Shown here: positions 9,146-50,612 of the stretch, one piece after another
Layout: every line of letters starts with the position of its first letter
Numbering within the stretch: the stretch's first letter is position 1
From: Candidatus Omnitrophota bacterium
Lineage (GTDB): Bacteria; Omnitrophota; Gorgyraeia; Duberdicusellales; 4484-171
Direction of reading: 5' to 3'
DNA: 64,000 nt
NCBI GenBank assembly: GCA_016935525.1
Contig: JAFGQU010000022.1
Span: 12,471-76,470 of the forward strand
Made by a program: the position numbers and the translations under genes
Notes under the pieces: generated by a model
Seen by the model: only the letters and a program-made list of their open reading frames with translations
Told to the model about the DNA's origin: nothing
Databases searched by the model: none

Positions 9146-9300
9146 GTCACATAGACACACGTATGCCTTCGGCACGTCACAAAGACACAAGGTCACAAAG
9201 TCACAGAGTCACATGTATTCGGTTCCACGTGTGACGTGTGTCGTGCAACGTGTGACTGCCCGCGAAGCAGACGTTCGTGTGACGTGTGACTTTGTGACCT
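9146..9300. repeat. Inverted array of short direct repeats (GTCACA x~5, then TGTGAC x~5). Intercistronic, 9307..10257 stop to eda start
   Basis: Left arm gtcacatag...gtcacaaag...ggtcacaaagtcacagagtcacatg. Right arm cacgtgtgacgtgtg...cgtgtgactg...cgtgtgacgtgtgactttgtgacc. Can fold as a long bulged hairpin. Confidence 0.85.
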
Positions 9301-10424: not shown

Positions 10425-10520
10425 CATGGCCGATAGTTAATAGTCAATAGTCAATAGTCGAGAGTCGATAGCCTATGGACTACGGACTATGGACTATGGA
10501 CCACAGACTATGGTCTATGG
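10425..10520. repeat. Inverted array of direct repeats (AGTCAATA-type x~5, then TATGGACT x~6)
   Basis: tagttaatagtcaatagtcaatagtcgagagtcgatagcc, then tatggactacggactatggactatggaccacagactatggtctatggact. Reverse complement of the right unit (AGTCCATA) is one mismatch from the left unit. Confidence 0.75.
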
Positions 10521-10775
10521 ACTGAATCAAAAAGCTGAAGGAGAAAAAGGGCAAAAAGCGAAAAAGTTATCAATATCTGGCAGCCAAGGACCATTATATA
10601 AGGCAGAAAGTCTTTTTTTCGTTTATAACGTTTATAACGTACGCCTCCCCGTACCTGAGCGCTTCCAGTACGGATGGTATCGCAGACGGCTTTAGCCATA
10701 TAAAGGGCGCAAAGCAGAAGTAGCAAAAGGATTCCGAGTGTATCCATGAGGTATAGGATTTAAGGCTTTTCAGTT

Positions 10776-12011: not shown

Positions 12012-12794
12012 TCAGGGGTGGTAACGTGTACAGGTCTCTTCATTGTGAATAACTTCCATTTCAGTGAGATATTTCCAATACCGTTTCGGCATGAACTGCC
12101 GCTGTAATCGTACATTTTTACGGTCTTTTATCGCAATATTCTTAAAGTATTCCTGCCATATTTTTTGATGTTCGGCTTCTTTGAAAGATAATTCAGGAAC
12201 CCTATAGTTTTTTACGTCAAAAATACGGGGATATGTAAGGTTGTGAATCGCTATCTTTTTTCTCTTAATATCATGGATAAACCATTGTTTCTGGGGCAAC
12301 CTTTGAGAAAAATGCCTTATAATAAGGGGTAATACATAATGGTCGGTCTCAATCGGAGCATACAGCCAGCCATCCTGAAGTTCCCGGAACCGTACCAATC
12401 CTCTCATCCGATGGGCTTCTACGCTTACTTTACGGGCATGATCATGGATAAACTTTACCCTCTCATCGGAAAGGAAATAATCAAGCTTTTTTTGAGTCTC
12501 AAATCCCAGCCGGACATATCGATAAATCGCCATTTCTTTATGCTGAACGGAAGACAAAAATACCCGGAATATATGGTCCAATGACCGGCGAACGAGGACC
12601 TTTTCGAGGGTATTCAAAAAATCGGCAGTTTCTGCTGGATCGGTCGTAATGGTGATGATTTTATCAAACAGGCCGGGTCGATAGGATCCTTTCGGACAGA
12701 TATTTCCCGGTTTTTCTCGTTTTTTTTCGATGACCGAAAGAGCCGTCAAGAGGCCCGTATACGTCCCGTCATAAAGATAGATCTTTCTTTCCAT
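12012..12794 (-). CDS. DUF4130-domain protein, partner of the radical-SAM DNA modification/repair protein (TIGR03915-like)
   Basis: About 260 aa, immediately downstream of and abutting the radical-SAM gene (stop/start adjacent). Composition and gene pairing fit the TIGR03915/TIGR03916 pair. Confidence 0.65.
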   Translation of the reverse strand: MERKIYLYDGTYTGLLTALSVIEKKREKPGNICPKGSYRPGLFDKIITITTDPAETADFLNTLEKVLVRRSLDHIFRVFLSSVQHKEMAIYRYVRLGFETQKKLDYFLSDERVKFIHDHARKVSVEAHRMRGLVRFRELQDGWLYAPIETDHYVLPLIIRHFSQRLPQKQWFIHDIKRKKIAIHNLTYPRIFDVKNYRVPELSFKEAEHQKIWQEYFKNIAIKDRKNVRLQRQFMPKRYWKYLTEMEVIHNEETCTRYHP

Positions 12795-14081
12795 TCAAAA
12801 TTCTCCGTGGAGCACCGAAGCGATTTCTTCCTTTTTTCCCTGTATAAAAAAATTAAGTTGTGGTGAAGAATTTTGCAGGGCGGGTCTTTTTTCAGGGGCC
12901 AGTCGTTCCCGGATATCTTCGGGAGTGAAAGGGATATCGCCATGATATTTCCCTTTTACCGTAATGAAATATTGAGCCCGTTTGAGCGATATTCTCATCT
13001 TTTTCAGGTCTTCGATCCGTAAAGATTTTACTTGCCGGGTGAGGACTATTTTATATGCCCCCTGTACCCCTATCCCCGGGACGCGTATCAGCGTCTCATA
13101 ATCAGCACGATTTATCTCTACGGGAAATTTTTCCGGATGACGTAATGCCCAACTCGCCTTGGGATCGACTTCCAGATCAAGGTGCGGAGTGTTTTTCGTA
13201 AAGAGTTCCCGTCCGTCGAACCCGTAAAACCGGATCAGCCAATCAGCCTGATAGAGGCGGTGTTCACGTAACAACGGGATAGCGGTGGTGAGTGCCGGGA
13301 GATTTTTCGTGGTGTTTACCGGTACATACGCCGAATAGTAGACCCTTTTCAAATGGATTGATTGATAGAGCCATTGACTTAACCCCATGATCTCCAGGTC
13401 CGTTTCCGGAGTAGCTCCGATGATCAATTGAGTGCTTTGGCCGGCCGGAGCATATGCCGGTACTTTTTTATGCTTTTTCCGTAACGCGATCATCGAACGT
13501 ATCGAAGTGTCGAGCCTTTTCATCGGGCCGATGATCTCGGGCATTTTTTTATCCGGGGCAAGAAGAGCGAGACTTTTTTGGGTAGGTAATTCGATGTTTA
13601 CGCTTACCCGGTCGGCGTACCGCCCGGCGATCTCCAAGAGACGCGGTGAGGTCCCGGGGATGATTTTAAGGTGGATATATCCGCCGAACTGACGGCGTCC
13701 GCGCAACTGGCGCACTATCTCGATCATCCGTTCCATCGTATAGTCGGGAGTTTTAATGACCGCCGAACTCAAAAATAATCCTTCAATATAGTTTTTTTCA
13801 TAAAAATCTACGGTAAGATCGATGAGTTCACGAGGTTCGAACGTTGCCCGCGGGATATCGTTACTACGCCGGTTTACGCAATAGGCGCAATCATAGATGC
13901 ATACGTTGGTCATCAGTATTTTTAATAATGAAATGCATCGTCCATCGGACGACCAGCTATGACAGATCCCGCCCAGGACAGTCATTCCCAGTTTATTTTT
14001 TCGTTTTGCGCCGCTGGAGGAGCAGCTGACGTCATATTTCGCGCTTTCGGCCAGAATTTTAAATTTTTCTAACGTATTCAT
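12795..14081 (-). CDS. Putative DNA modification/repair radical SAM protein (TIGR03916-like)
   Basis: MNTLEKFKILAESAKYDVSCSSSG N-terminus. CIYDCAYCVNRR radical-SAM CxxxCxxC motif. C-terminal HhH-like LIRVPGIGVQGAYKIV. The ORF-track N-terminal extension (to 14222) reads through the tandem repeats. Start set at the internal Met (~14081). Confidence 0.75.
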   Translation of the reverse strand: MNTLEKFKILAESAKYDVSCSSSGAKRKNKLGMTVLGGICHSWSSDGRCISLLKILMTNVCIYDCAYCVNRRSNDIPRATFEPRELIDLTVDFYEKNYIEGLFLSSAVIKTPDYTMERMIEIVRQLRGRRQFGGYIHLKIIPGTSPRLLEIAGRYADRVSVNIELPTQKSLALLAPDKKMPEIIGPMKRLDTSIRSMIALRKKHKKVPAYAPAGQSTQLIIGATPETDLEIMGLSQWLYQSIHLKRVYYSAYVPVNTTKNLPALTTAIPLLREHRLYQADWLIRFYGFDGRELFTKNTPHLDLEVDPKASWALRHPEKFPVEINRADYETLIRVPGIGVQGAYKIVLTRQVKSLRIEDLKKMRISLKRAQYFITVKGKYHGDIPFTPEDIRERLAPEKRPALQNSSPQLNFFIQGKKEEIASVLHGEF

Positions 14082-14138
14082 GATATATAAAATACAAAAA
14101 CCTTCGCCGTTTTTAGCGAAGGTTTTACTTGACCCAAA

Positions 14139-14305
14139 TTGCGAAACAATTTGCCCGTAGGGCCGATCCCAAAACTGAAAGTTTTGGAACAGATCGGGGT
14201 CACCCTCTTGAGGGTATTCCATGATCTGCGAAGCAATTTGCCCGTAGGGCCGATCCCAAAACTGAAAGTTTTGGAACAGATCGGGGTCACCCTCTTTTGA
14301 GGGTT
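14139..14305. repeat. Near-identical tandem direct repeat (2 x ~87 bp), each with a bulged hairpin. In the 5' leader of the radical-SAM gene
   Basis: Unit TGCGAA(A/G)CAATTTGCCCGTAGGGCCGATCCCAAAACTGAAAGTTTTGGAACAGATCGGGGTCACCCTCTT(T)GAGGGT occurs twice. Inner stem CCGATC..CCAAAACT-gaa-AGTTTTGG..GATCGG. A further hairpin CCTTCGC-cgttttta-GCGAAGG plus T-run lies at 14100-14127, ~15 nt before the ATG. Confidence 0.85.
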
Positions 14306-14417
14306 TTCTGTCCAGGATTTAATCCTTCAAACACAGGACATTTATCTAATTATATATTTAGCTTATCGCGAGATCGGAAGATTGTCAATATGGATTTGTA
14401 GTGTACATTCCCATCAC

Positions 14418-14500
14418 AAGACTAATAAAATTCCAAATTACAACTTCCAATATCCAAATGGGTCTTGTTTGTAATTTGTAAATTGGTATTTGGAATTTGG
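14418..14500. repeat. Inverted array of direct repeats (CCAAAT x3, then ATTTGG x3), immediately after gltD stop
   Basis: ttccaaattacaacttccaatatccaaatg...tttgtaatttgtaaattggtatttggaatttggag. Folds as a long hairpin followed by TTTATT on the minus strand. Possible terminator role. Confidence 0.75.
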
Positions 14501-14503
14501 AGA

Positions 14504-15952
14504 TTAGAATGTCGGCAACTCGGAATTTCCCATAAGATAGCGGTCGATATGATGTGCTGCCCGGCGGCCTTCAGAGATTGCCCAGACGATCAGGGATTGG
14601 CCGCGATGGGCATCGCCGCAGGCAAATATGCCTTTTTGCGAGGTCATAAACCTTTGGTCGGTCTGAGCGTTATTCCGGTTATCTTTTTTGATCCCGAGGT
14701 CGTCCAGTAATCCCTGTTGGGGATGTAAGAACCCTACCGCTAAAATGACCAGATCGGCATCAATATCGAATCCGCTGCCCGGTATTTCCTGCATGAGCGG
14801 ACAGGATTCGGGACTGTTCGGGTCTTTTTTAAATTCGACTTCCACACATTTGATTTTTTTGATCTCACCATTTTTTCCTACAAACTCTTTGGTGAGTACC
14901 GACCAATGACGGTTTCCTCCTTCTTCATGACTGGAAGAAGTTTTTAAAAGCATCGGATAGGCCGGCCAGGGATCGTTTTCTCTACGGCACTGAGGCGGTT
15001 GCGGAAGAAGTTCGATTTGAACCACGCAAGAAGCATCCTGACGATGGGCTGTACCCACGCAATCCGAACCGGTATCTCCTCCTCCGATCACTACTACCCG
15101 TTTACCCTGGGCGGTGATCATTTTTTCAGGAACAGTTATCCCGGCAATCCGGCGGTTATTCTGTATAAGATAATCCATCGCAAAATAGATACCGTTAAGG
15201 TCCCGGCCGGGAAGAGTGAGGTCCCGGGGAACCCGGGAACCGGTCGCGATACAGATCGCGTCAAATCTATTCCGTAACGTTTCGGGTTCGAGGTCTTTAC
15301 CGATTTCGATATTTGTCTCAAATCGGACTCCTTCTTGTTCCCATATCCGCAGCCGGCGGTCGATCACCTGTTTTTCCAGTTTAAAATCAGGGATCCCGTA
15401 GCGCAAGATGCCTCCGCATTTTTCATCTTTTTCATACACGGTTACCGTATGGCCGGCTTGATTTAGTTGTGCCGCACAACTCAATCCCGCCGGTCCCGAT
15501 CCGATTATCGCCACCTTTTTCCCGGTACGCGATTGCGGCGGGCGAGGCCGGATCAGGCCATGGGTAAACCCGTATTCAATGATCGAGAGTTCATTTTCCC
15601 GGATAGTGACCGGATCATCATTGATCCCTAATACGCAGGCATATTCACAAGGCGCCGGGCATACCCGTCCGGTAATTTCCGGAAGATTATTGGTTGTGCC
15701 TAACAGTTGTAACGCTTTTTCCCAACGCCCTGAGATCATCGCGTCGTTCCATTCCGGAATATAATTTCCGACAGGACAGGCCCAATGACAAAAAGGAGTA
15801 CCGCAATCCATACAGCGTGATGCCTGTTCGGCCGATTTCTCATCACTACGTAACAAAGACACTTCTTTATAATCTTTTATCCGTTCGCAGACCGGCCGAT
15901 ACGGTGTTTTTTCTCTTTTTGTCTTTAAAAACGCTTTTACGTCCTTCGCCAT
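14504..15952 (-). CDS. gltD: Glutamate synthase (NADPH) small subunit
   Basis: Two Cys clusters ([23 protein letters not shown]). GSGPAGL FAD/NAD folds. 482 aa. Directly downstream of gltB. Confidence 0.9.
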
Positions 15953-16061: not shown

Positions 16062-19000
16062 TCAATCCGATACTTCGGTCAATCCTAATTTCTTGTCGAC
16101 ACCTTGCATTTCCAGGATCTTTTTATATTCTAACGGCATTATCTTTACGAATTTTTCCACACAATCGTTAAAATTATCCAATACTTTTTTGGCGACGGTA
16201 CTTTGAGTATATTTATAATGATTACTCACTAAAGAATGAATAAGTTGAGTATCATCCTCATGTAGGGTCTCAAATTTTACCATGCTCAGGTTACATTTTG
16301 CCCGGAAATCCTCTTCGGTATCCCATACATAAGCGATTCCTCCGCTCATTCCCGCGGCAAAGTTTCGCCCGGTACGTCCTAAGACCACTACCCGTCCCCC
16401 GGTCATATATTCACAGCCATGGTCGCCGACTCCTTCGACTACGGCATAGAGACCGGAATTACGAATACAAAACCGTTCGCCGGCAATCCCGCGGATATAG
16501 GCTTCGCCCGATATCGCTCCGTAAAAAGAAGTGTTTCCGATAATAATATTCTCCTGGGGAATATATTCGGCGTTACGGTCGGGATAGATGATGATTTTCC
16601 CGCCGGAGGTACCTTTGCCGACATAATCATTAGCCATGCCTTCTAATTCGAACGTGATCCCTTTCGCAAGCCAGGCTGCGAAACTCTGGCCGGCAATACC
16701 CCGGAATTTGATCTGGATCGTATCTTCCAGAAGCCCTTCTTCTCCGTAAAATCTACATACCTCACCGCTTAACATCGCTCCGGTAGTACGGTCGGTATTT
16801 TTAATCGATACTTCAAATTTTACCGGTTCGGAATTATTATTTAAAGTATACCGGCATAGATCGATAAGCTTTCGGTCAAGCACGCTGTCTATTCGGTGAT
16901 CCTGAGTACGTTGACAATAAGTGCCTACATCCGGCGGTACCTGCGGTTTATAGAGTATCCGCGAGAAATCGATCCGGGTCGCTTTCCAGGGCAGGATATT
17001 GGTATCGACTTCTAAAAGGTCGGTACGGCCGATAAGCTCATCGATCGTCCGTATTCCCAGAGAAGCCATGATCTCACGCAGTTCTTCAACAACAAAGTTA
17101 AAATAATTGACGATATGTTCCGGACGGCCCTGAAATTTTTTCTGCAAAAGATCATCCTGGGTCGCTATTCCTACCGAACAATTATTTAGATGACAATGCC
17201 GTAACATGACGCATCCCATTATAATCAATGTTGCGGTACAGAATCCGAATTCTTCGGCTCCCAGAATGGCAGCGATTGCGACATCTCTTCCGGTACGTAA
17301 TTGCCCGTCGGTCTGCAGGCGTACCCGTGACCGCAGGTCGTTTAAGACTAAGGTTTGATGCGTTTCCGATACCCCCAGTTCCCAGGGTAACCCGGCATGG
17401 CGGATAGAACTGACCGGAGACGCTCCGGTCCCGCCGTCTCCGCCGGAAATAAGGATCATATCGGAATGTCCTTTCGCTACGCCGGCGGCAATAGTGCCTA
17501 CTCCGATTTCCGAGACCAGTTTTACGCTGATCCGCGCGTGCGGATTGGTGTTTTTCAGATCAAAAATAAGTTGAGCCAGGTCTTCGATCGAGTAAATATC
17601 ATGATGCGGCGGCGGTGAGATTAAAGTGACCCCTGGTGTCGTGTATCTGGTTTTCGCGATGGTAGGCGATACTTTATGACCGGGCAGTTGTCCTCCTTCG
17701 CCCGGTTTCGCTCCTTGAGCGATCTTTATCTGCAATTCGTCGGCATTCGTAAGATAGTTTGTGGTTACTCCAAACCGGCCGGACGCGACCTGTTTTATCG
17801 CGCTGCGCCGAGAATCTCCGTTAGGATGAGGGATAAACCGTGCGGGGTCTTCGCCTCCTTCACCGGTATTTGATTTTCCACCGAGCTTATTCATGGCGAT
17901 TGCCAGGGTTTCATGGGCGCCCCGGGAAATAGAACCGAAACTCATCGCTCCGGTAGCGAACCGTTTAAAAATATCTTCTTTCGGTTCGACCTCATCGATA
18001 GGGATAGTCTCAGACCTCTTGAATTTCAGCAGACTGCGTAATGTCGTCGGCTGTGCCGATTGATCGTTGATCAGGCGGGCAAATTCCCGATATTTCTGAG
18101 GATCGTTTTTACGGGTAGCGTCCTGCAGGGCGGCGATACTGTGCGGGTTCCAGAGATGGAACTCTCCGTCCCGTTTCCACTGGTAAAGCCCTCCGGTATC
18201 CAAAAGTGCGTTATACCCTGAACGTTGTGGGTAAGCATTGTGGTGTCGAAGAATCGTCTCGCGCGCGATGATCTCGAAATCCACTCCGCCGATACGGGAT
18301 ACCGTACCGGTAAAACTCCTTTCGATCACTTCATCGGCAACGCCTAAGGCTTCGAATATCTGAGCCCCGCGATAACTCTGTAACGTAGATATACCCATTT
18401 TGGAAAGGACCTTTTTGATACCTTTATCTATCGCTTGTATATAATTTTTTTTGGCCGTCGGGATATCCAGTTCCAGCTCCCCTTCTCTCTCGAGATATTC
18501 GATCGATTCAAGAGCAAGATAGGGGTTTATTGCGCCGCACCCGTAACCGAAAAGTAACGCAAAATGGTGGACTTCCCGCGGTTCGGCGCTTTCTAAGATC
18601 AACGCGATCTGAGAACGGGAGGTTTTCCGTACCAGATGGTGGTGTACGGTCCCGATAGCCAGTAGTGCCGGTATGGCCGCGTGATCCTGGTTGAATCCGC
18701 GGTCACTTAACACGATAAACGTATATCCTTCTTTAATCGCCGCCTCGGATTCCCGGCAGATCGCGTCAAGACGTTTCATGAAATTATCGGAAGAATCGGC
18801 TTTAAACAGCAACGAAACCGTTTTGGTCTTAAATCCTTTCTCTTTAATATTTTTTATGAGAACAAGGTCTTCATCGGTAAGGATCGGGTGCGGCAGGTGG
18901 ACTCGCCGGGCATGAGCTTCGGTCTCATCGAGAAGATTGCGCCGTGAGCCCATAAAACATTCCAGGCTCATCACGATCTCTTCGCGGATCGGATCGATTG

Positions 19001-20591
19001 CCGGGTTGGTCACCTGCGCAAAAAGCTGTTTAAAATAGCTATACAATAATTGCGGTTTTTTAGAAAGTACGGCAAGCGGCGTATCGTTTCCCATCGAGCC
19101 GGTAGGTTCTAATCCGGTATGGGCCATCGGTTTGATGATCATCTTTAGATCTTCGCGCGTATAGCCGAAGGCTTTAAGCGAAGTCAAAGTTTTCTGTCCG
19201 TTTGCAGGCGGGGTTTCTTTCCTGGGAAGTTCACCCAGTTCTACTAAAGTGTTTTTAAGCCACTCGGCGTACGGTTTTTGGATAGAAACCGTTTCTTTCA
19301 CTTCCTGATCGTCTATGATACGACCTTCTTCGGTATCGACAAAAAACATTTTCCCCGGTTCCAGCCGGCCGGAAGAGATGATGTCACCGGCGGGAATATC
19401 GAGTACCCCTACCTCTGATGCCATTACTACCATATTGTGTGTAGTGATGATATACCGCGAAGGGCGCAGACCGTTACGGTCCAGGACCGCTCCGATCCTG
19501 GTCCCGTCAGTAAAAGCAATACTCGCCGGGCCGTCCCAGGGTTCCATTAAACAGGACATATATTTATGGAACGACCGGACCCGTTCATCAAGAAAGGTGT
19601 TCTGTTCCCAGGCCGAAGGGATAAGCATCATCATCGCGTGAGGAAGACTTCGTCCGGCCAATACCAACAGTTCCAACACCAGATCGATAGTCGCCGAATC
19701 GCTCAGTCCTGGAATAATGATCGGTTTTAGTTTTTCGATGTCCGGGCCGAACAACGGAGATGCTAAAAGCTGTTCTTTTGCGCTCATCCAGTTGATATTT
19801 CCCCGTAATGTGTTGATCTCACCGTTATGGGCGAGAAACCTGAACGGCTGGGCAAGGTCCCAGGTAGGAAACGTATTGGTACTGTAACGGGAATGGACCA
19901 GGGCAATCGAACTTTTAAGGTCGGGATCATTAAGGTCGACAAAAAAGCTCTGTAATTGATCGGGCATCAGAAGCCCTTTATAAGAGAACGTACGGCAGGA
20001 AAGGTTGGTGATATAGAAAAACGATTTTTGAGTTATGTTCGATGCAGCGACGGTTTTTTCTACCAGACGGCGGATCACGTACAGTTTTCGTTCGAACGCA
20101 AGCTGATCGGCAAGGTCCGGGGATCTTTGGATAAAAATCTGTTCGATGGCCGGTTGGGCCTTTTTTGCTCCTTTTCCGATATCGGTATTATTCACGGGAA
20201 CCTGCCGCCAGCCCAGTAACGTCTGTCCTTCTTCGCTCACGGTTTTGGCAAAAATATCTTTTAAGAGCTTTTTTTCCCGGGTATCCGTAGGTAAAAAGAT
20301 CAATCCGGTTCCGTAATCGCCATAATCCGGTAATTTGATGCGGGCGGTATCGGCTATTTTCCGGAAAAATTCGTGAGGAGTTTGGATGAGAATTCCCGCA
20401 CCGTCACCGGTCTTAGGGTCTGATCCTACCGCGCCGCGATGAGCCAGACGGTTTAAAACCCCTATTCCCTGCTGAACGAGAGCATAGGATTTTTCCCCCT
20501 TTATGTGACAGACAAATCCGACCCCGCAGGAATCTTTTTCAAATTGTGGGTCATATAAACCTTGTTTTTGAGGGAAATGAGTATATTCCAT
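16062..20591 (-). CDS. gltB: Glutamate synthase large subunit
   Basis: 1509 aa. N-terminal class II amidotransferase CGVGF. Central and FMN domains. C-terminal GXGXG domain. Confidence 0.95.
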   Translation of the reverse strand: MEYTHFPQKQGLYDPQFEKDSCGVGFVCHIKGEKSYALVQQGIGVLNRLAHRGAVGSDPKTGDGAGILIQTPHEFFRKIADTARIKLPDYGDYGTGLIFLPTDTREKKLLKDIFAKTVSEEGQTLLGWRQVPVNNTDIGKGAKKAQPAIEQIFIQRSPDLADQLAFERKLYVIRRLVEKTVAASNITQKSFFYITNLSCRTFSYKGLLMPDQLQSFFVDLNDPDLKSSIALVHSRYSTNTFPTWDLAQPFRFLAHNGEINTLRGNINWMSAKEQLLASPLFGPDIEKLKPIIIPGLSDSATIDLVLELLVLAGRSLPHAMMMLIPSAWEQNTFLDERVRSFHKYMSCLMEPWDGPASIAFTDGTRIGAVLDRNGLRPSRYIITTHNMVVMASEVGVLDIPAGDIISSGRLEPGKMFFVDTEEGRIIDDQEVKETVSIQKPYAEWLKNTLVELGELPRKETPPANGQKTLTSLKAFGYTREDLKMIIKPMAHTGLEPTGSMGNDTPLAVLSKKPQLLYSYFKQLFAQVTNPAIDPIREEIVMSLECFMGSRRNLLDETEAHARRVHLPHPILTDEDLVLIKNIKEKGFKTKTVSLLFKADSSDNFMKRLDAICRESEAAIKEGYTFIVLSDRGFNQDHAAIPALLAIGTVHHHLVRKTSRSQIALILESAEPREVHHFALLFGYGCGAINPYLALESIEYLEREGELELDIPTAKKNYIQAIDKGIKKVLSKMGISTLQSYRGAQIFEALGVADEVIERSFTGTVSRIGGVDFEIIARETILRHHNAYPQRSGYNALLDTGGLYQWKRDGEFHLWNPHSIAALQDATRKNDPQKYREFARLINDQSAQPTTLRSLLKFKRSETIPIDEVEPKEDIFKRFATGAMSFGSISRGAHETLAIAMNKLGGKSNTGEGGEDPARFIPHPNGDSRRSAIKQVASGRFGVTTNYLTNADELQIKIAQGAKPGEGGQLPGHKVSPTIAKTRYTTPGVTLISPPPHHDIYSIEDLAQLIFDLKNTNPHARISVKLVSEIGVGTIAAGVAKGHSDMILISGGDGGTGASPVSSIRHAGLPWELGVSETHQTLVLNDLRSRVRLQTDGQLRTGRDVAIAAILGAEEFGFCTATLIIMGCVMLRHCHLNNCSVGIATQDDLLQKKFQGRPEHIVNYFNFVVEELREIMASLGIRTIDELIGRTDLLEVDTNILPWKATRIDFSRILYKPQVPPDVGTYCQRTQDHRIDSVLDRKLIDLCRYTLNNNSEPVKFEVSIKNTDRTTGAMLSGEVCRFYGEEGLLEDTIQIKFRGIAGQSFAAWLAKGITFELEGMANDYVGKGTSGGKIIIYPDRNAEYIPQENIIIGNTSFYGAISGEAYIRGIAGERFCIRNSGLYAVVEGVGDHGCEYMTGGRVVVLGRTGRNFAAGMSGGIAYVWDTEEDFRAKCNLSMVKFETLHEDDTQLIHSLVSNHYKYTQSTVAKKVLDNFNDCVEKFVKIMPLEYKKILEMQGVDKKLGLTEVSD

Positions 20592-27723: not shown

Positions 27724-28521
27724 TTAAAATGCATACGCAAAACTTATCCCGGTATAAAAGCGTTCCGGTTGATTCCCGTCGTTGGCATCTTTTAGATCAT
27801 CTAAAGGTATCGAATAGTTGATCGACGGCGTCATGGTTAACGTGTCGGTCAGAGGTAACGTCAATGCAAGAGAAAGACCGATATCATACCCACTTGTTCC
27901 GGCAATAAAGAGTTTTCGGTTATATCCGAAATGAGAGCCGAAATCAAGCGATATGCCGGTATCTTCGTGAAGCAGGAGACTGTAAGCCATATCCAGCGAA
28001 AAATAACTTCCCAATCCTCCGCCATGGTTCTGGTCGCCGTAATCACGATAATAGGTAAGTGAGGTTTCTACCGGCCAGTCCAGTCCCGGTATTTTGCTCA
28101 ATCCTAATCCGACATAAAATTCACGGCTATACAGGTTTGCCGCGGGAAAATCATAGTACGTATGCCCTACCGATACGCTCAAGAGATCGTTGATCGCTTT
28201 GGTATAATCGATCACATAATCGATCTCGTCCGATTGCCCCCCCTGATTATTGTCGGTATCCCAACTGCTCCAGAAACTGAAGGTGAACCCATAGGCGCTG
28301 ATGTGTATCCCTGGCTGGATGACCGGGTCCCGGTCAAGTAAAAAACCTCTCCAGACATAATCCGAATAGAAATCAAGCGTTCCGGAAATATCAACGTCGA
28401 TATGTAACTCGTCAAGGATACCCGCGCCATACACACTTTTCCCTAAAGGAAAAAGCATGCCGGTAATAAGCAGTACCCCTAAAGTTACGTGCCGTACGGT
28501 TATTAAAAGTGATTTTACCAT
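27724..28521 (-). CDS. Outer-membrane beta-barrel (porin-like) protein, co-operonic with amt
   Basis: Signal peptide MVKSLLITVRHVTLGVLLITGMLFPLGKSVYGAG. Alternating aromatic beta-strand pattern. C-terminal ...ISFAYAF. Start set at the internal Met with RBS AAAGGGGA. The ORF-track extension is likely untranslated. Confidence 0.6.
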   Translation of the reverse strand: MVKSLLITVRHVTLGVLLITGMLFPLGKSVYGAGILDELHIDVDISGTLDFYSDYVWRGFLLDRDPVIQPGIHISAYGFTFSFWSSWDTDNNQGGQSDEIDYVIDYTKAINDLLSVSVGHTYYDFPAANLYSREFYVGLGLSKIPGLDWPVETSLTYYRDYGDQNHGGGLGSYFSLDMAYSLLLHEDTGISLDFGSHFGYNRKLFIAGTSGYDIGLSLALTLPLTDTLTMTPSINYSIPLDDLKDANDGNQPERFYTGISFAYAF

Positions 28522-28571
28522 CGTGTGTCCCCTTTCGTTAAGGCGTTTGTTTGTATATCGGACCATTTTTT

Positions 28572-28630
28572 CAAAAAAAAACGTTTCACTGCACCCCACC
28601 CGGTGTAATGAAACGTCTTTGTTTTTTTAC
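28572..28630. terminator. Bidirectional rho-independent terminator (after the sigma-factor gene, in the leader of the porin-amt operon)
   Basis: AAAAAAAAACGTTTCA...(20-nt loop)...TGAAACGTCTTTGTTTTTTT. A-run on one side and T-run on the other. A second hairpin CACAGTAAA-caatcgtta-TTTACTGTG sits at 28643-28669. Confidence 0.6.
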
Positions 28631-28676
28631 CACTTTGTATACACAGTAAACAATCGTTATTTACTGTGCGTTCAAC

Positions 28677-32461: not shown

Positions 32462-32600
32462 ACAGATGGAAAATCCCGATCAAATCCAAAGCGCTAAATT
32501 CAAAAAAGGTATTCGCTTTCCCCATTAGGATTTCGGATTTAGAATTTTGGATTTTTAAGCCTGTGACGTGTGACCTTATGTCTATGTGACCTATTTCTTC
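32462..32600. repeat. Composite repeat element: AAATCC x2-3, GGATTT x3, TGTGAC x3 (3' of gltD/nfnB-like gene)
   Basis: aaatcccgatcaaatccaaagcgctaaattc...ggatttcggatttagaattttggattttt, then tgtgacgtgtgaccttatgtctatgtgacc. Its reverse complement has the same module order as 36793..37052. Confidence 0.8.
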
Positions 32601-34003: not shown

Positions 34004-34028
34004 ATTACTAATATAAATGTTCAATGTA

Positions 34029-34106
34029 AAATTAGCATTTAGCAATTAGCAATGTGAAATTCGGAAATTCTCTTATTTCTTCCATTGCTAAATGAAAATT
34101 GCTAAT
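34029..34106. repeat. Inverted array of direct repeats (TTAGCA x3, then TGCTAA x2-3) between the nfnA-like and nfnB-like genes
   Basis: aaattagcatttagcaattagcaatg...cattgctaaatgaaaattgctaattg. Confidence 0.75.
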
Positions 34107-34125
34107 TGATCATTGATAATTTTTC

Positions 34126-34998
34126 TTACTCTATACGCTTACCGCTATCCGCTATTCGCTGTAAATTACAGATATGTTTCTCTTTTTTTTCGTACATCTT
34201 ACTGCGCTGGAAGAGTTCGTCCCAATCGACCAAGTGGGCATCGAATTCCGGCCCGTCAATACATGCGAATTTTGTTTCTTTATCTACCGTGACCCGGCAA
34301 CATCCGCACATGCCGGTCGCATCGACCATAAGCGCGTTAAGCGAGACTATAGTCTTGAGTGAATATCTTTCGGTAATCTCGGTGACTTTTTTCATCATCG
34401 CAACCGGCCCGACCGCATAGGCTAGATGGTAAGGAGTATTGTTATGGTTTTTCTCAAGAAGACGAAGAAGGACATCGGTCACCAATCCTTTCTCTCCTGT
34501 GGAGCCGTCATCGGTCGTGGCAAAAAACTCATCGGATAGGCCTTGAAGTTCTTTTCTTAAAATAAACAGGTCTTGACTACGTGCTCCGATAATAGTAGTG
34601 ATCTGATTCCCGATGTGTTTTAAAGCCCGGGTTACCGGATATACCTCGGCAATCCCTACTCCTCCCCCGATAATGAGTATCCTCCCGAATTTCTTGATCT
34701 GGGTAGGGGTCCCTAAAGGGCCGGCAAGGCTGAATACCGTTTCCCCGATACCCAGTTCTCCCAGTTTTCCCGTAGAATATCCGGCGTGTTGAAAAATAAG
34801 AGTGATCGTCCCGGTTTCTTTATCGCTCTCCACTATGGTCAACGGGATCCGTTCGCCGGTCGCGGTGGGAATCACTACTACGAATTGTCCGGGGCGGGCT
34901 TTTTGGGCGATAAGCGGAGCAATGATACGCAATTGAGTGATTCGCAGGGGATCTTTCCGGATGAGTTCTTTTTTATCGATAATCTTCATCAGTATCAA
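34126..34998 (-). CDS. PyrK-like FAD/NAD(P)-binding, [2Fe-2S] electron-transfer subunit (NfnA / SudB-like)
   Basis: FNR-like fold. C-terminal MCGCCRV...C cluster typical of PyrK/NfnA. About 285 aa. Confidence 0.75.
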   Translation of the reverse strand: MILMKIIDKKELIRKDPLRITQLRIIAPLIAQKARPGQFVVVIPTATGERIPLTIVESDKETGTITLIFQHAGYSTGKLGELGIGETVFSLAGPLGTPTQIKKFGRILIIGGGVGIAEVYPVTRALKHIGNQITTIIGARSQDLFILRKELQGLSDEFFATTDDGSTGEKGLVTDVLLRLLEKNHNNTPYHLAYAVGPVAMMKKVTEITERYSLKTIVSLNALMVDATGMCGCCRVTVDKETKFACIDGPEFDAHLVDWDELFQRSKMYEKKEKHICNLQRIADSGKRIE

Positions 34999-36792: not shown

Positions 36793-37052
36793 TAGGTCAC
36801 ATGTCACATAGTCCCACGACACACGTTACTTTGACTTTATTCGGATACGGTTAGATTTCAATCACCAATAACCAAGATATATCTTTTAAATCCTAAATTC
36901 TAACCCCTAAATCCTAAACAAATTCGAAATGGGGAAAATCCAAAACAATACCACTGAGACCAAAAATCAAAAATATATCAATATTTTGGGTTTGGGATGT
37001 ATGATTTAGGATTTGCTTAGAGCCTAGGATTTTGGATTTAGGATTTAAACTG
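36793..37052. repeat. Composite repeat element: GTCACA x2-3, AAATCCTAA x3-4, spacer, TTAGGATTT x4
   Basis: ggtcacatgtcacatagtc...taaatcctaaattctaacccctaaatcctaaac...ggaaaatccaaaac...gatttaggatttgcttagagcctaggattttggatttaggattt. Same modules as 32462..32600 in opposite orientation. Confidence 0.8.
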
Positions 37053-50579: not shown

Positions 50580-50612
50580 GTAACGCGTAACGCGACACGC
50601 GTAACGCGTAAA
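50580..50612. repeat. Palindrome-rich motif in the rpsD 5' leader (CGCGTAACGCG-aca-CGCGTAACGCG). Shares a 16-nt core with 60380..60415
   Basis: Minus strand ACGCGTGTCGCGTTAC here vs ACGCGTGTCACGTTAC upstream of rplV. Confidence 0.45.

What the first reader, a model, noticed from the sequence alone, without database searches (positions are those of the whole stretch)
14100..14310. Near-identical tandem 87-bp repeat with internal hairpins plus a terminator-like hairpin 15 nt before the radical-SAM start codon
Two copies of a 78-nt unit differ at only 2-3 positions. Each forms CCGATC/CCAAAACT-gaa-AGTTTTGG/GATCGG plus an ACCCTC...GAGGGT hairpin. On the transcript they are followed by CCTTCGC-uaaaaacg-GCGAAGG and U-run, then the AUG with no clear RBS.

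This is the layout of an attenuator or tandem-aptamer expression platform, but the near identity of the copies suggests a recent duplication of a mobile structured element instead. The ORF-track 'protein' 14078..14290 is an artefact of this repeat.
Basis: seen in the sequence. Interest (0 to 1): 0.5.

Follow-up and report, generated by a model that had tools for sequence, protein, structure and literature searches.

The report
Duplicated hairpins inside conserved leader RNA
The near-identical 87-base tandem repeat is a recent duplication of a hairpin module inside the 5' leader RNA of a DNA-repair operon, and that leader belongs to an apparently undescribed family of terminator-containing regulatory leaders in Omnitrophota bacteria.

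Summary
Two copies (78 and 76 nt, period 87-89) differ by one substitution and a 2-nt loop indel. Each folds into three hairpins. An intrinsic terminator follows, ending 15 nt before the true ATG (14081) of a TIGR03916 radical-SAM gene.

The repeat is not the conserved part. Orthologous loci and a metagenome scan gave about 45 related leaders; every host named is Omnitrophota. They share:
- a sigma-70-like promoter;
- an almost invariant 28-30-nt 5' domain, GUCCUGnGUUyGAAGG..CCUGGAC (window 14310-14339, outside the finding);
- an A-rich linker;
- a terminator whose 5' arm is always (A)AACCUUC;
- then genes for DNA repair or modification (TIGR03916-like and PA0069 radical-SAM, RadC, DNA methylases, HNH) or SIMPL.

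The linker is 10-14 nt in most members. It holds two unrelated hairpins in eight lineages and four in two. In the window this module is tandemly duplicated.

No Rfam 15 family matches and no paper describing it was found.

Best reading: a conditional terminator (attenuator or riboswitch-like leader), in which GAAGG may compete for CCUUC. The repeat is a lineage-specific spacer expansion. It is not a tandem aptamer, and no dispersed copies were seen. The ligand or protein, and the pairing itself, remain unproven.

The parts
14383..14388 (-). -35 hexamer TTGACA of the leader promoter
   Evidence: Sequence. It sits at the same position as the TTGACA of L012, L014 and L015. 27 of 43 distinct family upstream regions have a perfect TTGACA.
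14360..14365 (-). -10 hexamer TAAGCT: weak (3/6), 17-nt spacer, 20 nt before the 5' domain
   Evidence: It is inferred from the family-wide spacing, where the -10 ends 17-25 nt before GUCCUG. It is too weak to be reported by the consensus scan.
14310..14339 (-). Conserved 5' domain GUCCUGUGUUUGAAGGAUUAAAUCCUGGAC, the candidate sensor
   Evidence: It is the only match in the window and the best hit of covariance model R1. The same motif occurs in L012, L014, L015, L086, L088 and in about 45 metagenome leaders.
14227..14304 (-). Repeat unit 1 (promoter-proximal, 78 nt): hairpins 14289-14304, 14250-14286 and 14240-14250, then the tail AAAUUGCUUCGCA
14216..14226 (-). 11-nt spacer GAUCAUGGAAU between the units
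14140..14215 (-). Repeat unit 2 (76 nt): hairpins 14202-14215, 14163-14199 and 14153-14163, then the tail AAAUUGUUUCGCA
14123..14130 (-). Conserved A-rich box AAGUAAAA directly before the terminator arm
   Evidence: AAG.AAAACCUUC is invariant or nearly invariant in alignments A1 and A2.
14087..14126 (-). Intrinsic terminator AAAACCUUCGC-UAAAAACG-GCGAAGGUUUU plus U-tract UUUUUGUAUUUUAU
   Evidence: Terminator scan. The sequence is conserved in L012 and L014 while the loop varies. The stem covaries across the family.
12795..14081 (-). TIGR03916 radical-SAM gene ('putative DNA modification/repair'), true ATG at 14081
   Evidence: NCBIfam 609.6 bits. It is 100% identical to an NCBI protein from a Candidatus Omnitrophica MAG.
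12012..12794 (-). TIGR03915 / DUF4130 partner gene, abutting the radical-SAM stop codon (one operon)
   Evidence: NCBIfam 241.8 bits. The same gene pair is present in all orthologous loci.
14428..14501 (.). Inverted heptamer arrays (TTCCAAA / TTTGGAA) just after the gltD stop codon. Upstream boundary of the leader region, not part of the leader.

Best explanation
The finding covers the middle and 3' end of a roughly 260-nt 5' leader RNA, transcribed on the - strand from a promoter near 14388-14360. It precedes the TIGR03916/TIGR03915 DNA-repair operon.

The leader belongs to a family found so far only in Omnitrophota. Each member has:
- a nearly invariant 28-30-nt 5' domain (GUCCUGnGUUyGAAGG-loop-CCUGGAC);
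- an A-rich linker;
- an intrinsic terminator whose 5' arm is always (A)AACCUUC;
- then the regulated gene.

By default the terminator forms and transcription stops before the gene. Read-through is proposed to occur when GAAGG of the 5' domain captures CCUUC, the terminator's 5' arm. That pairing would be a pseudoknot or antiterminator too weak to win alone, so it would need an unknown small ligand or protein to stabilise it. The downstream genes suggest a signal linked to DNA damage or foreign DNA.

The linker tolerates an optional module of adjacent hairpins. In this genome that module (three hairpins) was recently duplicated in tandem, which is the 87-nt repeat. The repeat is a structured spacer. 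At most it changes the time or distance between the sensor and the termination decision. It is not itself a sensor.

Shown: the conserved blocks, promoter, terminator, strand, gene associations, variable linker and recent duplication.
Inferred: conditional termination, the GAAGG:CCUUC pairing, the nature of the signal and any effect of the duplication.
For: Orthologues. The rSAM orthologues L012 (73% aa), L014 (75%), L015 (60%), L086 and L088 carry the same frame upstream on the same strand. The middle differs completely.

Family size. A metagenome scan with the 5'-domain pattern gave 63 loci. 47 matches are followed by a terminator starting (A)AACCUUC/U. The hits in GC-rich contigs had no such terminator.

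Promoter. 34 of 43 distinct upstream regions match the sigma-70 consensus at 9/12 or better. The -10 mostly ends 17-25 nt before GUCCUG (tool scans). In L015 the upstream gene is divergent, so this is the only available promoter.

No second promoter. The terminator-to-start distance is usually 15-46 nt.

Internal copies. L017, L069 and L043 carry a second copy between genes without a promoter of its own. That fits a cis-acting terminator, not an sRNA gene.

Strand. The terminator is 95.8% paired, its inner pairs covary, and its U.G pairs would be C-A mismatches on the other strand.

Second constraint on the 5' arm. The U's of CCUUC never change, although their partners are A or G (UA 16/UG 9; UA 22/UG 4).

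Candidate helix. YGAAGG:CCUUCR is 99.4% paired, with CG 14, UG 7, UA 4 and one mismatch at the variable pair.

Linker. It is 10-14 nt in most members. It holds exactly two adjacent hairpins in eight lineages, four in two, and seven in the window. The inserts share no sequence. L018 and L034 have identical upstream 70-nt regions and near-identical downstream sequence, and differ by a roughly 40-nt two-hairpin indel.

Downstream genes. TIGR03916-type and PA0069 radical-SAM, RadC, three lineages of N6/N4 DNA methylase, MTaX1-HNH, ORF6N, NYN and SIMPL. The TIGR03916/15 operon and splB are DNA-damage regulated in other phyla (PMC4951493, PMC12392091).

Repeat. The units are 75/76 identical.
Against: - There is no experimental or transcript evidence that termination is conditional.
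- The search pattern fixed GUCCUG, GUUYGAAGG and CCUGGAC, so the 5' domain shows no covariation and its fold is unresolved. Two inner pairings (AGG/CCU or GUUY/GAAC) each fit only part of the variants.
- Support for GAAGG:CCUUC rests on one variable pair. 21 of 500 shuffles reach the observed score, and three of the four U-A cases come from one clade.
- L088 lacks the Y base, and L015 has U-U there.
- Alone the antiterminator is far weaker than the terminator.
- Tolerance of 10 to 183 nt between sensor and terminator fits a protein that modifies RNA polymerase at least as well as it fits a compact pseudoknot.
- Several Omnitrophota-type rSAM loci lack the leader (L082-85, L089).
- The window's -10 hexamer is weak (3/6).
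- The copy number of a 70-nt exact repeat in a short-read MAG cannot be verified without reads.
Confidence: 0.65

Rival explanations
1. Tandem aptamers: each 87-nt unit is a ligand-binding domain and the two act together on the terminator, as in tandem glycine or other tandem riboswitches.
For: There are two structured units directly before a terminator.
Against: - The unit is absent from every other family member, including the closest orthologues. Those have unrelated hairpins or none at that position.
- There is no Rfam match at E up to 10.
- The conserved element lies elsewhere, at 14310-14339.
- Near identity of the copies indicates a recent event, not two aptamers maintained by selection.
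Confidence: 0.03
2. A small mobile or dispersed structured repeat (MITE-, REP- or BIME-like) that landed twice in the leader.
For: - The copies are palindrome-rich and near identical.
- Hairpin modules in this linker are gained or lost between close strains (L018 versus L034).
- The genome is rich in short repeats.
Against: - There is no other copy in 64 kb.
- The 19-mer core gives only chance hits, with unrelated flanks, in the GTDB species genomes.
- There are no phage or plasmid matches.
- No terminal inverted repeats or target-site duplication are evident around the units.
- The head-to-tail arrangement with an 11-nt spacer fits local duplication.
Confidence: 0.08
3. The promoter-to-terminator segment is an independent trans-acting small RNA gene. 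The downstream gene is expressed only by incidental read-through.
For: The segment has its own strong promoter and an efficient-looking terminator. The 5' domain is highly conserved and could hold a seed region.
Against: - It is always on the same strand as an ORF and immediately before it, with no second promoter.
- Promoter-less copies sit between genes of an operon (L017, L069, L043).
- There are several copies per genome, before functionally related genes.
- The two roles do not exclude each other.
Confidence: 0.12
4. The conserved 28-nt block acts as DNA: an operator for a repressor bound downstream of the promoter (roadblock). The hairpin is then a constitutive leaky terminator.
For: The block is extremely conserved in sequence with no observed covariation. 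It contains GTCC...GGAC and a central TTCGAA. DNA-repair regulons are usually controlled by repressors.
Against: - The block lacks overall dyad symmetry, and the TTCGAA palindrome is lost in the frequent U variant.
- Its orientation and distance relative to the promoter and to CCUUC are fixed.
- The loop accepts insertions of 3 to 40 nt, including whole hairpins in L012.
- It does not explain the invariant CCUUC arm.
Confidence: 0.07
5. The second copy is an assembly artefact: a mis-resolved 70-nt exact repeat in a short-read MAG.
For: The source is a metagenome-assembled genome. Exact repeats near the k-mer length can be mis-counted.
Against: The copies differ by a substitution and a 2-nt indel, and they have distinct flanks. 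That is what two real copies look like. No reads were available to test it.
Confidence: 0.05

Closest known systems
ON-type pseudoknot riboswitches with a terminator platform: fluoride (crcB) and ZTP (pfl). Also preQ1-I for the layout of hairpin, A-rich tail and 3' strand pairing to the loop. This comparison rests on general knowledge of these classes.
   Same: A small sensor of about 30-50 nt sits directly after the promoter. There is an A-rich connector. The proposed 3' pairing strand (CCUUC) is also the 5' arm of an intrinsic terminator, so forming the tertiary helix would prevent termination.
   Different: - No sequence or structure match to any Rfam 15 family.
- The ligand is unknown and the pseudoknot is unproven.
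- The connector tolerates 30-170 nt of extra hairpins.
- The regulated genes are for DNA repair or modification and SIMPL.
radC RNA motif (RF01754) and Pedo-repair motif (RF01715), from Weinberg et al. 2010, PMC2864571
   Same: They are orphan structured 5'-UTR motifs listed as candidate cis-regulatory RNAs. From my own knowledge of these families, they are associated with DNA-processing genes (radC, methylases, repair). The paper's table lists them for Proteobacteria and Pedobacter.
   Different: Neither model hits the window or ten member loci, even at E up to 1-10. The phylum differs and the consensus is unrelated. Only the gene theme is shared.
LexA/SOS or DdaA control of the TIGR03916-TIGR03915 operon and splB
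   Same: The same operon, and a SplB-like radical-SAM gene, belong to DNA-damage regulons in Verrucomicrobia and Moraxellaceae (PMC4951493, PMC12392091). Here they share a common upstream element with RadC.
   Different: In those phyla control is by a DNA-binding protein at the promoter. Here the shared element is a transcribed leader with a terminator.
Type III toxin-antitoxin loci (ToxIN-like): promoter, tandem RNA repeats, terminator, gene. This comparison rests on general knowledge.
   Same: The window shows the same linear order of tandem direct repeats, terminator and ORF.
   Different: - The downstream gene is a TIGR03916 radical-SAM enzyme, not an endoribonuclease toxin.
- There are only two units of 87 nt.
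- The repeats are absent from homologous loci.
REP/BIME/MITE-type extragenic palindromic repeats
   Same: Stable hairpins lie in an intergenic region, with indel polymorphism of hairpin modules between strains.
   Different: No dispersed copies were detected. The hairpins sit at one defined position in a conserved leader.

Membership tests
Any Rfam 15 family (riboswitches, leaders, sRNAs) | Covariance-model score at or near the family's gathering threshold | tested here: not met
   There are 0 hits at gathering thresholds in the window. The region scan at E up to 10 gives only weak, unrelated hits. Ten member loci at E up to 1 give one unrelated weak hit.
Intrinsic (Rho-independent) terminator | G+C-rich stem-loop followed directly by a U-tract on the transcribed strand | tested here: met
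   The stem has 12 pairs (5 G-C) followed by UGUAUUUUAU, on the - strand at 14126-14097. The helix is 95.8% paired with covarying inner pairs across 26 sequences.
Transcription attenuator / terminator-type riboswitch leader | Promoter upstream, terminator between promoter and ORF, and no other promoter for the ORF | tested here: met
   In the window the -10 is weak and is inferred from family spacing.
Transcription attenuator / terminator-type riboswitch leader | A mutually exclusive alternative pairing (antiterminator) supported by covariation | tested here: inconclusive
   GAAGG:CCUUC is always possible and the CCUUC arm is invariant. Only one pair varies (CG 14, UG 7, UA 4, other 1), and 21 of 500 shuffles reach the score.
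Transcription attenuator / terminator-type riboswitch leader | Ligand- or factor-dependent change in termination | not testable with these tools
   This needs in vitro transcription, in-line probing or term-seq.
Tandem riboswitch (two aptamers) | Each repeated unit is a conserved aptamer found in homologous leaders | tested here: not met
   The unit is absent from all other members. Inserts at that position share no sequence.
MITE / REP-like dispersed repeat | Multiple dispersed copies in the genome | tested here: inconclusive
   There are none in the 64-kb window. The GTDB species genomes give only chance hits. The rest of the source MAG is not available.
MITE / REP-like dispersed repeat | Terminal inverted repeats and target-site duplication | tested here: not met
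   The unit ends (ACCCUC... / ...UUCGCA) are not inverted repeats of each other, and the flanks show no duplicated target.
Type III toxin-antitoxin (ToxIN-like) | The downstream gene encodes a ToxN/AbiQ-type endoribonuclease toxin | tested here: not met
   The downstream gene is TIGR03916, at 609.6 bits.
radC RNA motif (RF01754) / Pedo-repair (RF01715) | Match to the family covariance model | tested here: not met

The most novel reading that the evidence does not exclude
The GUCCUGnGUUyGAAGG...CCUGGAC / AAAACCUUC leader is a new riboswitch class, or a new RNA target of an antitermination protein. It would switch on an Omnitrophota regulon of DNA repair and DNA modification genes (TIGR03916/15, PA0069/SplB-like, RadC, DNA methylases, HNH, SIMPL) by antitermination. 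That would be an RNA-level counterpart of the LexA/SOS system in a phylum with no cultured representative for genetics.
Probability: 0.3. Interest if true: 0.8.

Novelty: new member of a known kind. Interest (0 to 1): 0.6.

Why it matters
If the leader is a conditional terminator, it defines a regulon in Omnitrophota, an uncultivated phylum for which I found no described cis-regulatory RNA. It would link a widespread but functionally unsolved radical-SAM/DUF4130 repair pair with RadC, SplB-like enzymes, DNA methylases and SIMPL proteins under one signal.

An almost invariant 28-nt sensor with a terminator is small enough for direct biochemical ligand or protein screening.

The tandem duplication offers natural variants (0, 2, 4 or 2x3 hairpins) for testing how sensor-to-terminator distance affects the termination decision.

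For annotation, two spurious ORFs (14078-14290 and the 475-aa extension) should be removed.

Tried and rejected
- **Rfam.** Searched the whole window at gathering thresholds, the region at E up to 10, and ten member loci at E up to 1. Nothing relevant.
- **Genome scan.** The hairpin 19-mer CCAAAACTGAAAGTTTTGG against 185,579 species genomes gave 11 single hits with unrelated flanks, about the chance expectation.
- **Exact-protein look-up.** Failed for the window rSAM and for its 100% twin P0001, so the rest of the MAG could not be read.
- **More family members.** Covariance model R1, run on all held loci and on the window with filters off, plus a fuzzy regex, found no further or more diverged members. 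The hit at 28573-28650 is an ordinary terminator.
- **Other collections.** The viral contig scan gave two GC-rich chance hits. Phage and plasmid BLAST gave no match.
- **Leader peptide.** AUGUCCUGA is present in some members but absent in others (L012, L027 group), so this was rejected.
- **Plus-strand sRNA.** One ending at ACCCTCTTTTGAGGGTTTTCT was rejected. Family synteny, promoter position and the U.G pairs of the terminator put the RNA on the - strand.
- **CsrA-type GGA sites and a T-loop mimic (GUUCGAA).** Considered from memory only and not testable, so not adopted.
- **Literature.** Searches on Omnitrophica/Omnitrophota with riboswitch, RNA motif or noncoding RNA found no description.

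Full report
**1. Observation**

The region was read on both strands.

- The repeat finder reports two direct copies, 14140-14209 and 14227-14296, 69/70 identical, spacing 87. A 55-nt core occurs exactly twice, against zero expected in shuffles.
- In transcript orientation (- strand) the units are 14227-14304 (78 nt) and 14140-14215 (76 nt). They are 75/76 identical plus a 2-nt indel in the first hairpin loop, and an 11-nt spacer separates them.
- Each unit contains three hairpins: ACCCUC-loop-GAGGGU; CCGAUC[UGUU]CCAAAACU-UUC-AGUUUUGG-GAUCGG; and GCCC-UAC-GGGC.
- The region folds much better than shuffles: z = -6.8 on the - strand and -5.7 on the + strand.
- A terminator-like site, AAAACCUUCGC-UAAAAACG-GCGAAGGUUUU followed by UGUAUUUUAU, is reported on the - strand at 14126-14097.
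- The ORF list gives a 475-aa ORF starting at 14222. The orthologues begin MNTL(E/K)K(F/I/L)KIL, which places the true ATG at 14081, 15 nt after the extended stem.

**2. Genes and organism**

- On the - strand, gltB (16062-20591) and gltD (14504-15952) are followed by a 422-nt intergenic region. Then come a TIGR03916 radical-SAM gene (609.6 bits) and, abutting it, a TIGR03915/DUF4130 gene (241.8 bits).
- The radical-SAM protein is 100% identical to an NCBI protein from a Candidatus Omnitrophica MAG.
- The window has 45.6% G+C.

**3. The repeat is not the conserved element**

- No other copy of the unit exists in the window.
- The 19-mer hairpin core gives only 11 chance hits, with unrelated flanks, in one genome per 185,579 species.
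- There is no phage or plasmid match and no Rfam hit.

The closest radical-SAM orthologues were fetched with their flanks. L012 (73% aa) and L014 (75% aa, also preceded by gltD) show, on the gene's strand:

- a TTGACA-N17-TAAAAT or TAAACT promoter;
- about 20 nt later, GUCCUGnGUUCGAAGG...CCUGGAC;
- then two hairpins unrelated to the window's unit;
- then AAGUAAAACCUUCGC-loop-GCGAAGGUUUUUGUAUUUUA, and the ATG 22-27 nt later.

The window has exactly the same frame: -35 at 14383-14388, -10 at 14360-14365, 5' domain at 14310-14339, terminator at 14097-14126. The tandem repeat fills the variable middle (alignment A2).

- L015 (60% aa; the upstream gene is divergent) has a minimal version with no middle hairpins and an 11/12 promoter match.
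- L086 and L088, both from MAGs labelled Omnitrophica, also carry it.
- Five other radical-SAM loci lack it: L013, L016, L082-85, L089 and L090/91.

**4. A family of leaders**

A metagenome scan with GTCCTGN{1,2}GTTYGAAGGN{4,34}CCTGGAC returned 63 loci.

- Hits in GC-rich contigs lie in unrelated sequence, and none has the (A)AACCUUC/U terminator.
- 47 matches in AT-rich contigs are followed by a hairpin plus U-tract whose 5' arm begins (A)AACCUUC/U.
- In 34 of 43 distinct upstream regions a sigma-70-like promoter matches at 9/12 or better, and 27 have a perfect TTGACA. The -10 usually ends 17-25 nt before GUCCUG (tool scans).
- The terminator is followed after 15-46 nt, in most cases, by a Shine-Dalgarno sequence and an ORF.
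- Three contigs carry two copies. The second lies between genes and has no promoter (L017, L069, L043).
- Every host that is named is Omnitrophota: Omnitrophica MAGs, Omnitrophica WOR_2 and Candidatus Kaelpia.
- Ten member loci give no Rfam match.
- No paper describing such a motif was found.

**5. Regulated genes**

Downstream ORFs are:

- TIGR03916 radical-SAM and a distant paralogue;
- a PA0069-family (SplB-like) radical-SAM;
- RadC;
- N6/N4 DNA methylases in three lineages;
- MTaX1-HNH endonuclease;
- ORF6N, NYN and HTH_17-receiver proteins;
- SIMPL proteins, a TPR protein and unknowns.

In Verrucomicrobia the TIGR03916/15 operon and splB belong to the LexA regulon (PMC4951493). In Moraxellaceae the pair is in the DdaA damage regulon (PMC12392091). 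The theme is DNA repair and modification. That the signal is DNA damage is an inference.

**6. Structure**

Alignment A1 (26 distinct short-form members) shows near-invariance of three blocks: the 5' domain, the linker nUUAAAAAAGnAAAA, and CCUUC.

*Terminator.* It is 95.8% paired and its inner pairs covary. The two U's of CCUUC never change, although their partners are A or G (UA 16/UG 9; UA 22/UG 4). This asymmetry indicates a second constraint on the 5' arm. The U.G pairs also fix the strand.

*Candidate GAAGG:CCUUC helix.* The 5' domain contains YGAAGG, the complement of CCUUCR. This helix is 99.4% paired. The only variable pair reads CG 14, UG 7, UA 4 and one mismatch, and 21 of 500 shuffles reach the score. 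This is suggestive, not decisive. It would either be a pseudoknot with the GUCC/GGAC hairpin or replace the inner part of that hairpin. In both cases it sequesters the terminator's 5' arm.

*Fold of the 5' domain.* It is unresolved.
- The search pattern fixed its sequence, so there is no covariation.
- RNAfold prefers GUCC.G.GUUY/GAAC.C.GGAC with a GAAGGGG loop.
- Loop variants instead extend an AGG/CCU helix. The window has AGGAU/AUCCU. L086 has only AAU between AGG and CCU. L012 carries a 40-nt insertion there.

*Energetics.* The antiterminator alone is much weaker than the terminator (-22 to -38 kcal/mol for whole short leaders). The default state should therefore be termination, and read-through would need a stabilising ligand or protein.

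**7. The linker and the tandem repeat**

- The distance from CCUGGAC to the terminator arm is 10-14 nt in most members.
- Eight lineages have exactly two adjacent hairpins there (L012, L014, L034, L037, L056, L059, L079, L086). Two have four (L030, L033). The window has seven, that is 2x3 plus one formed by the tail of unit 2. All fold far better than shuffles.
- The inserts share no sequence.
- L018 and L034 have identical upstream 70-nt regions and near-identical downstream sequence. They differ by a roughly 40-nt two-hairpin indel, so such modules are gained or lost quickly.

The window's repeat is therefore a tandem duplication of this optional module. It arose after divergence from the L012 and L014 lineages and is very recent.

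Each unit ends in (C/U)UUCGCA, which resembles the terminator arm CCUUCGC. This may be a trace of a duplication that once included that arm. It could also compete for the 3' arm. Neither was tested.

**8. Verdict**

- The attenuator layout is supported by comparative evidence.
- The tandem-aptamer reading is rejected.
- The mobile-element reading finds no support, but the rest of the genome could not be searched.
- The more important result lies just outside the reported coordinates: an apparently undescribed, highly conserved leader family in Omnitrophota that precedes DNA repair and modification genes.
- The proposed mechanism is conditional termination through competition for CCUUC, and it remains to be shown.
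- Alternatives kept open: a protein-dependent antitermination site, a dual sRNA role, or a DNA operator.

Noticed in passing
window 14428-14501; also 9176-9290, 10433-10523, 32525-32554, 34022-34160, 36887-37047, 50580-50611; L014 100-150: Intergenic regions are full of short tandem heptamer arrays with different units (TTTGGAA, ATAGTCA, CTATGGA, TTAGGAT, ATTGATA, GTAACGC...). Directly after the gltD stop codon, two arrays in inverted orientation form a 31-nt-arm hairpin. The L014 relative has a different heptamer (GGGTATC) at the same place.
   Followed up: partly
window 14227-14239 and 14140-14152: Each repeat unit ends in AAAUUG(C/U)UUCGCA. This resembles the terminator 5' arm AAAACCUUCGC and could pair with the terminator 3' arm GCGAAGG. 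It may be a decoy, or a trace of how the duplication arose.
   Followed up: no
window 14078-14290 (-) and 12795-14222 (-): Two mechanical ORFs run through the leader. The 70-aa ORF ends in an ATGA overlap with the radical-SAM start. The 475-aa ORF is an in-frame upstream extension of the radical-SAM gene. Neither is conserved in the orthologues.
   Followed up: yes
L018 120-195 versus L034 745-886: Two contigs with identical upstream 70-nt regions and near-identical downstream sequence differ by a roughly 40-nt two-hairpin insertion or deletion in the middle of the A-rich linker. This is an indel polymorphism of the optional module.
   Followed up: partly
L017 (4603-4691 and 5567-5655), L069, L043: There are two leader copies per contig, about 1 to 3.2 kb apart. 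The second lies about 20 nt after the preceding gene's stop codon and has no promoter. In L017 and L069 it precedes a SIMPL gene.
   Followed up: partly
L079 224-259 and L070 882-965: These copies have a canonical 5' domain but no CCUUC terminator arm. In L079 the sequence reads AACCCGUAAACC... with a weak hairpin directly before the ATG. In L070 the sequence breaks off after GAAACC.
   Followed up: no
whole window: 40 of 41 ORFs of at least 200 aa lie on the - strand. Only 16 of 41 have a Shine-Dalgarno-like motif before the first ATG.
   Followed up: no
window 28573-28650 (-): A weak hit of the leader model (19.7 bits) is only an ordinary terminator-like hairpin (AAAGACGUUUCA...GUGAAACGUUUUUUUUU) before the gene at 27724-28566. 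It has no 5' domain.
   Followed up: yes
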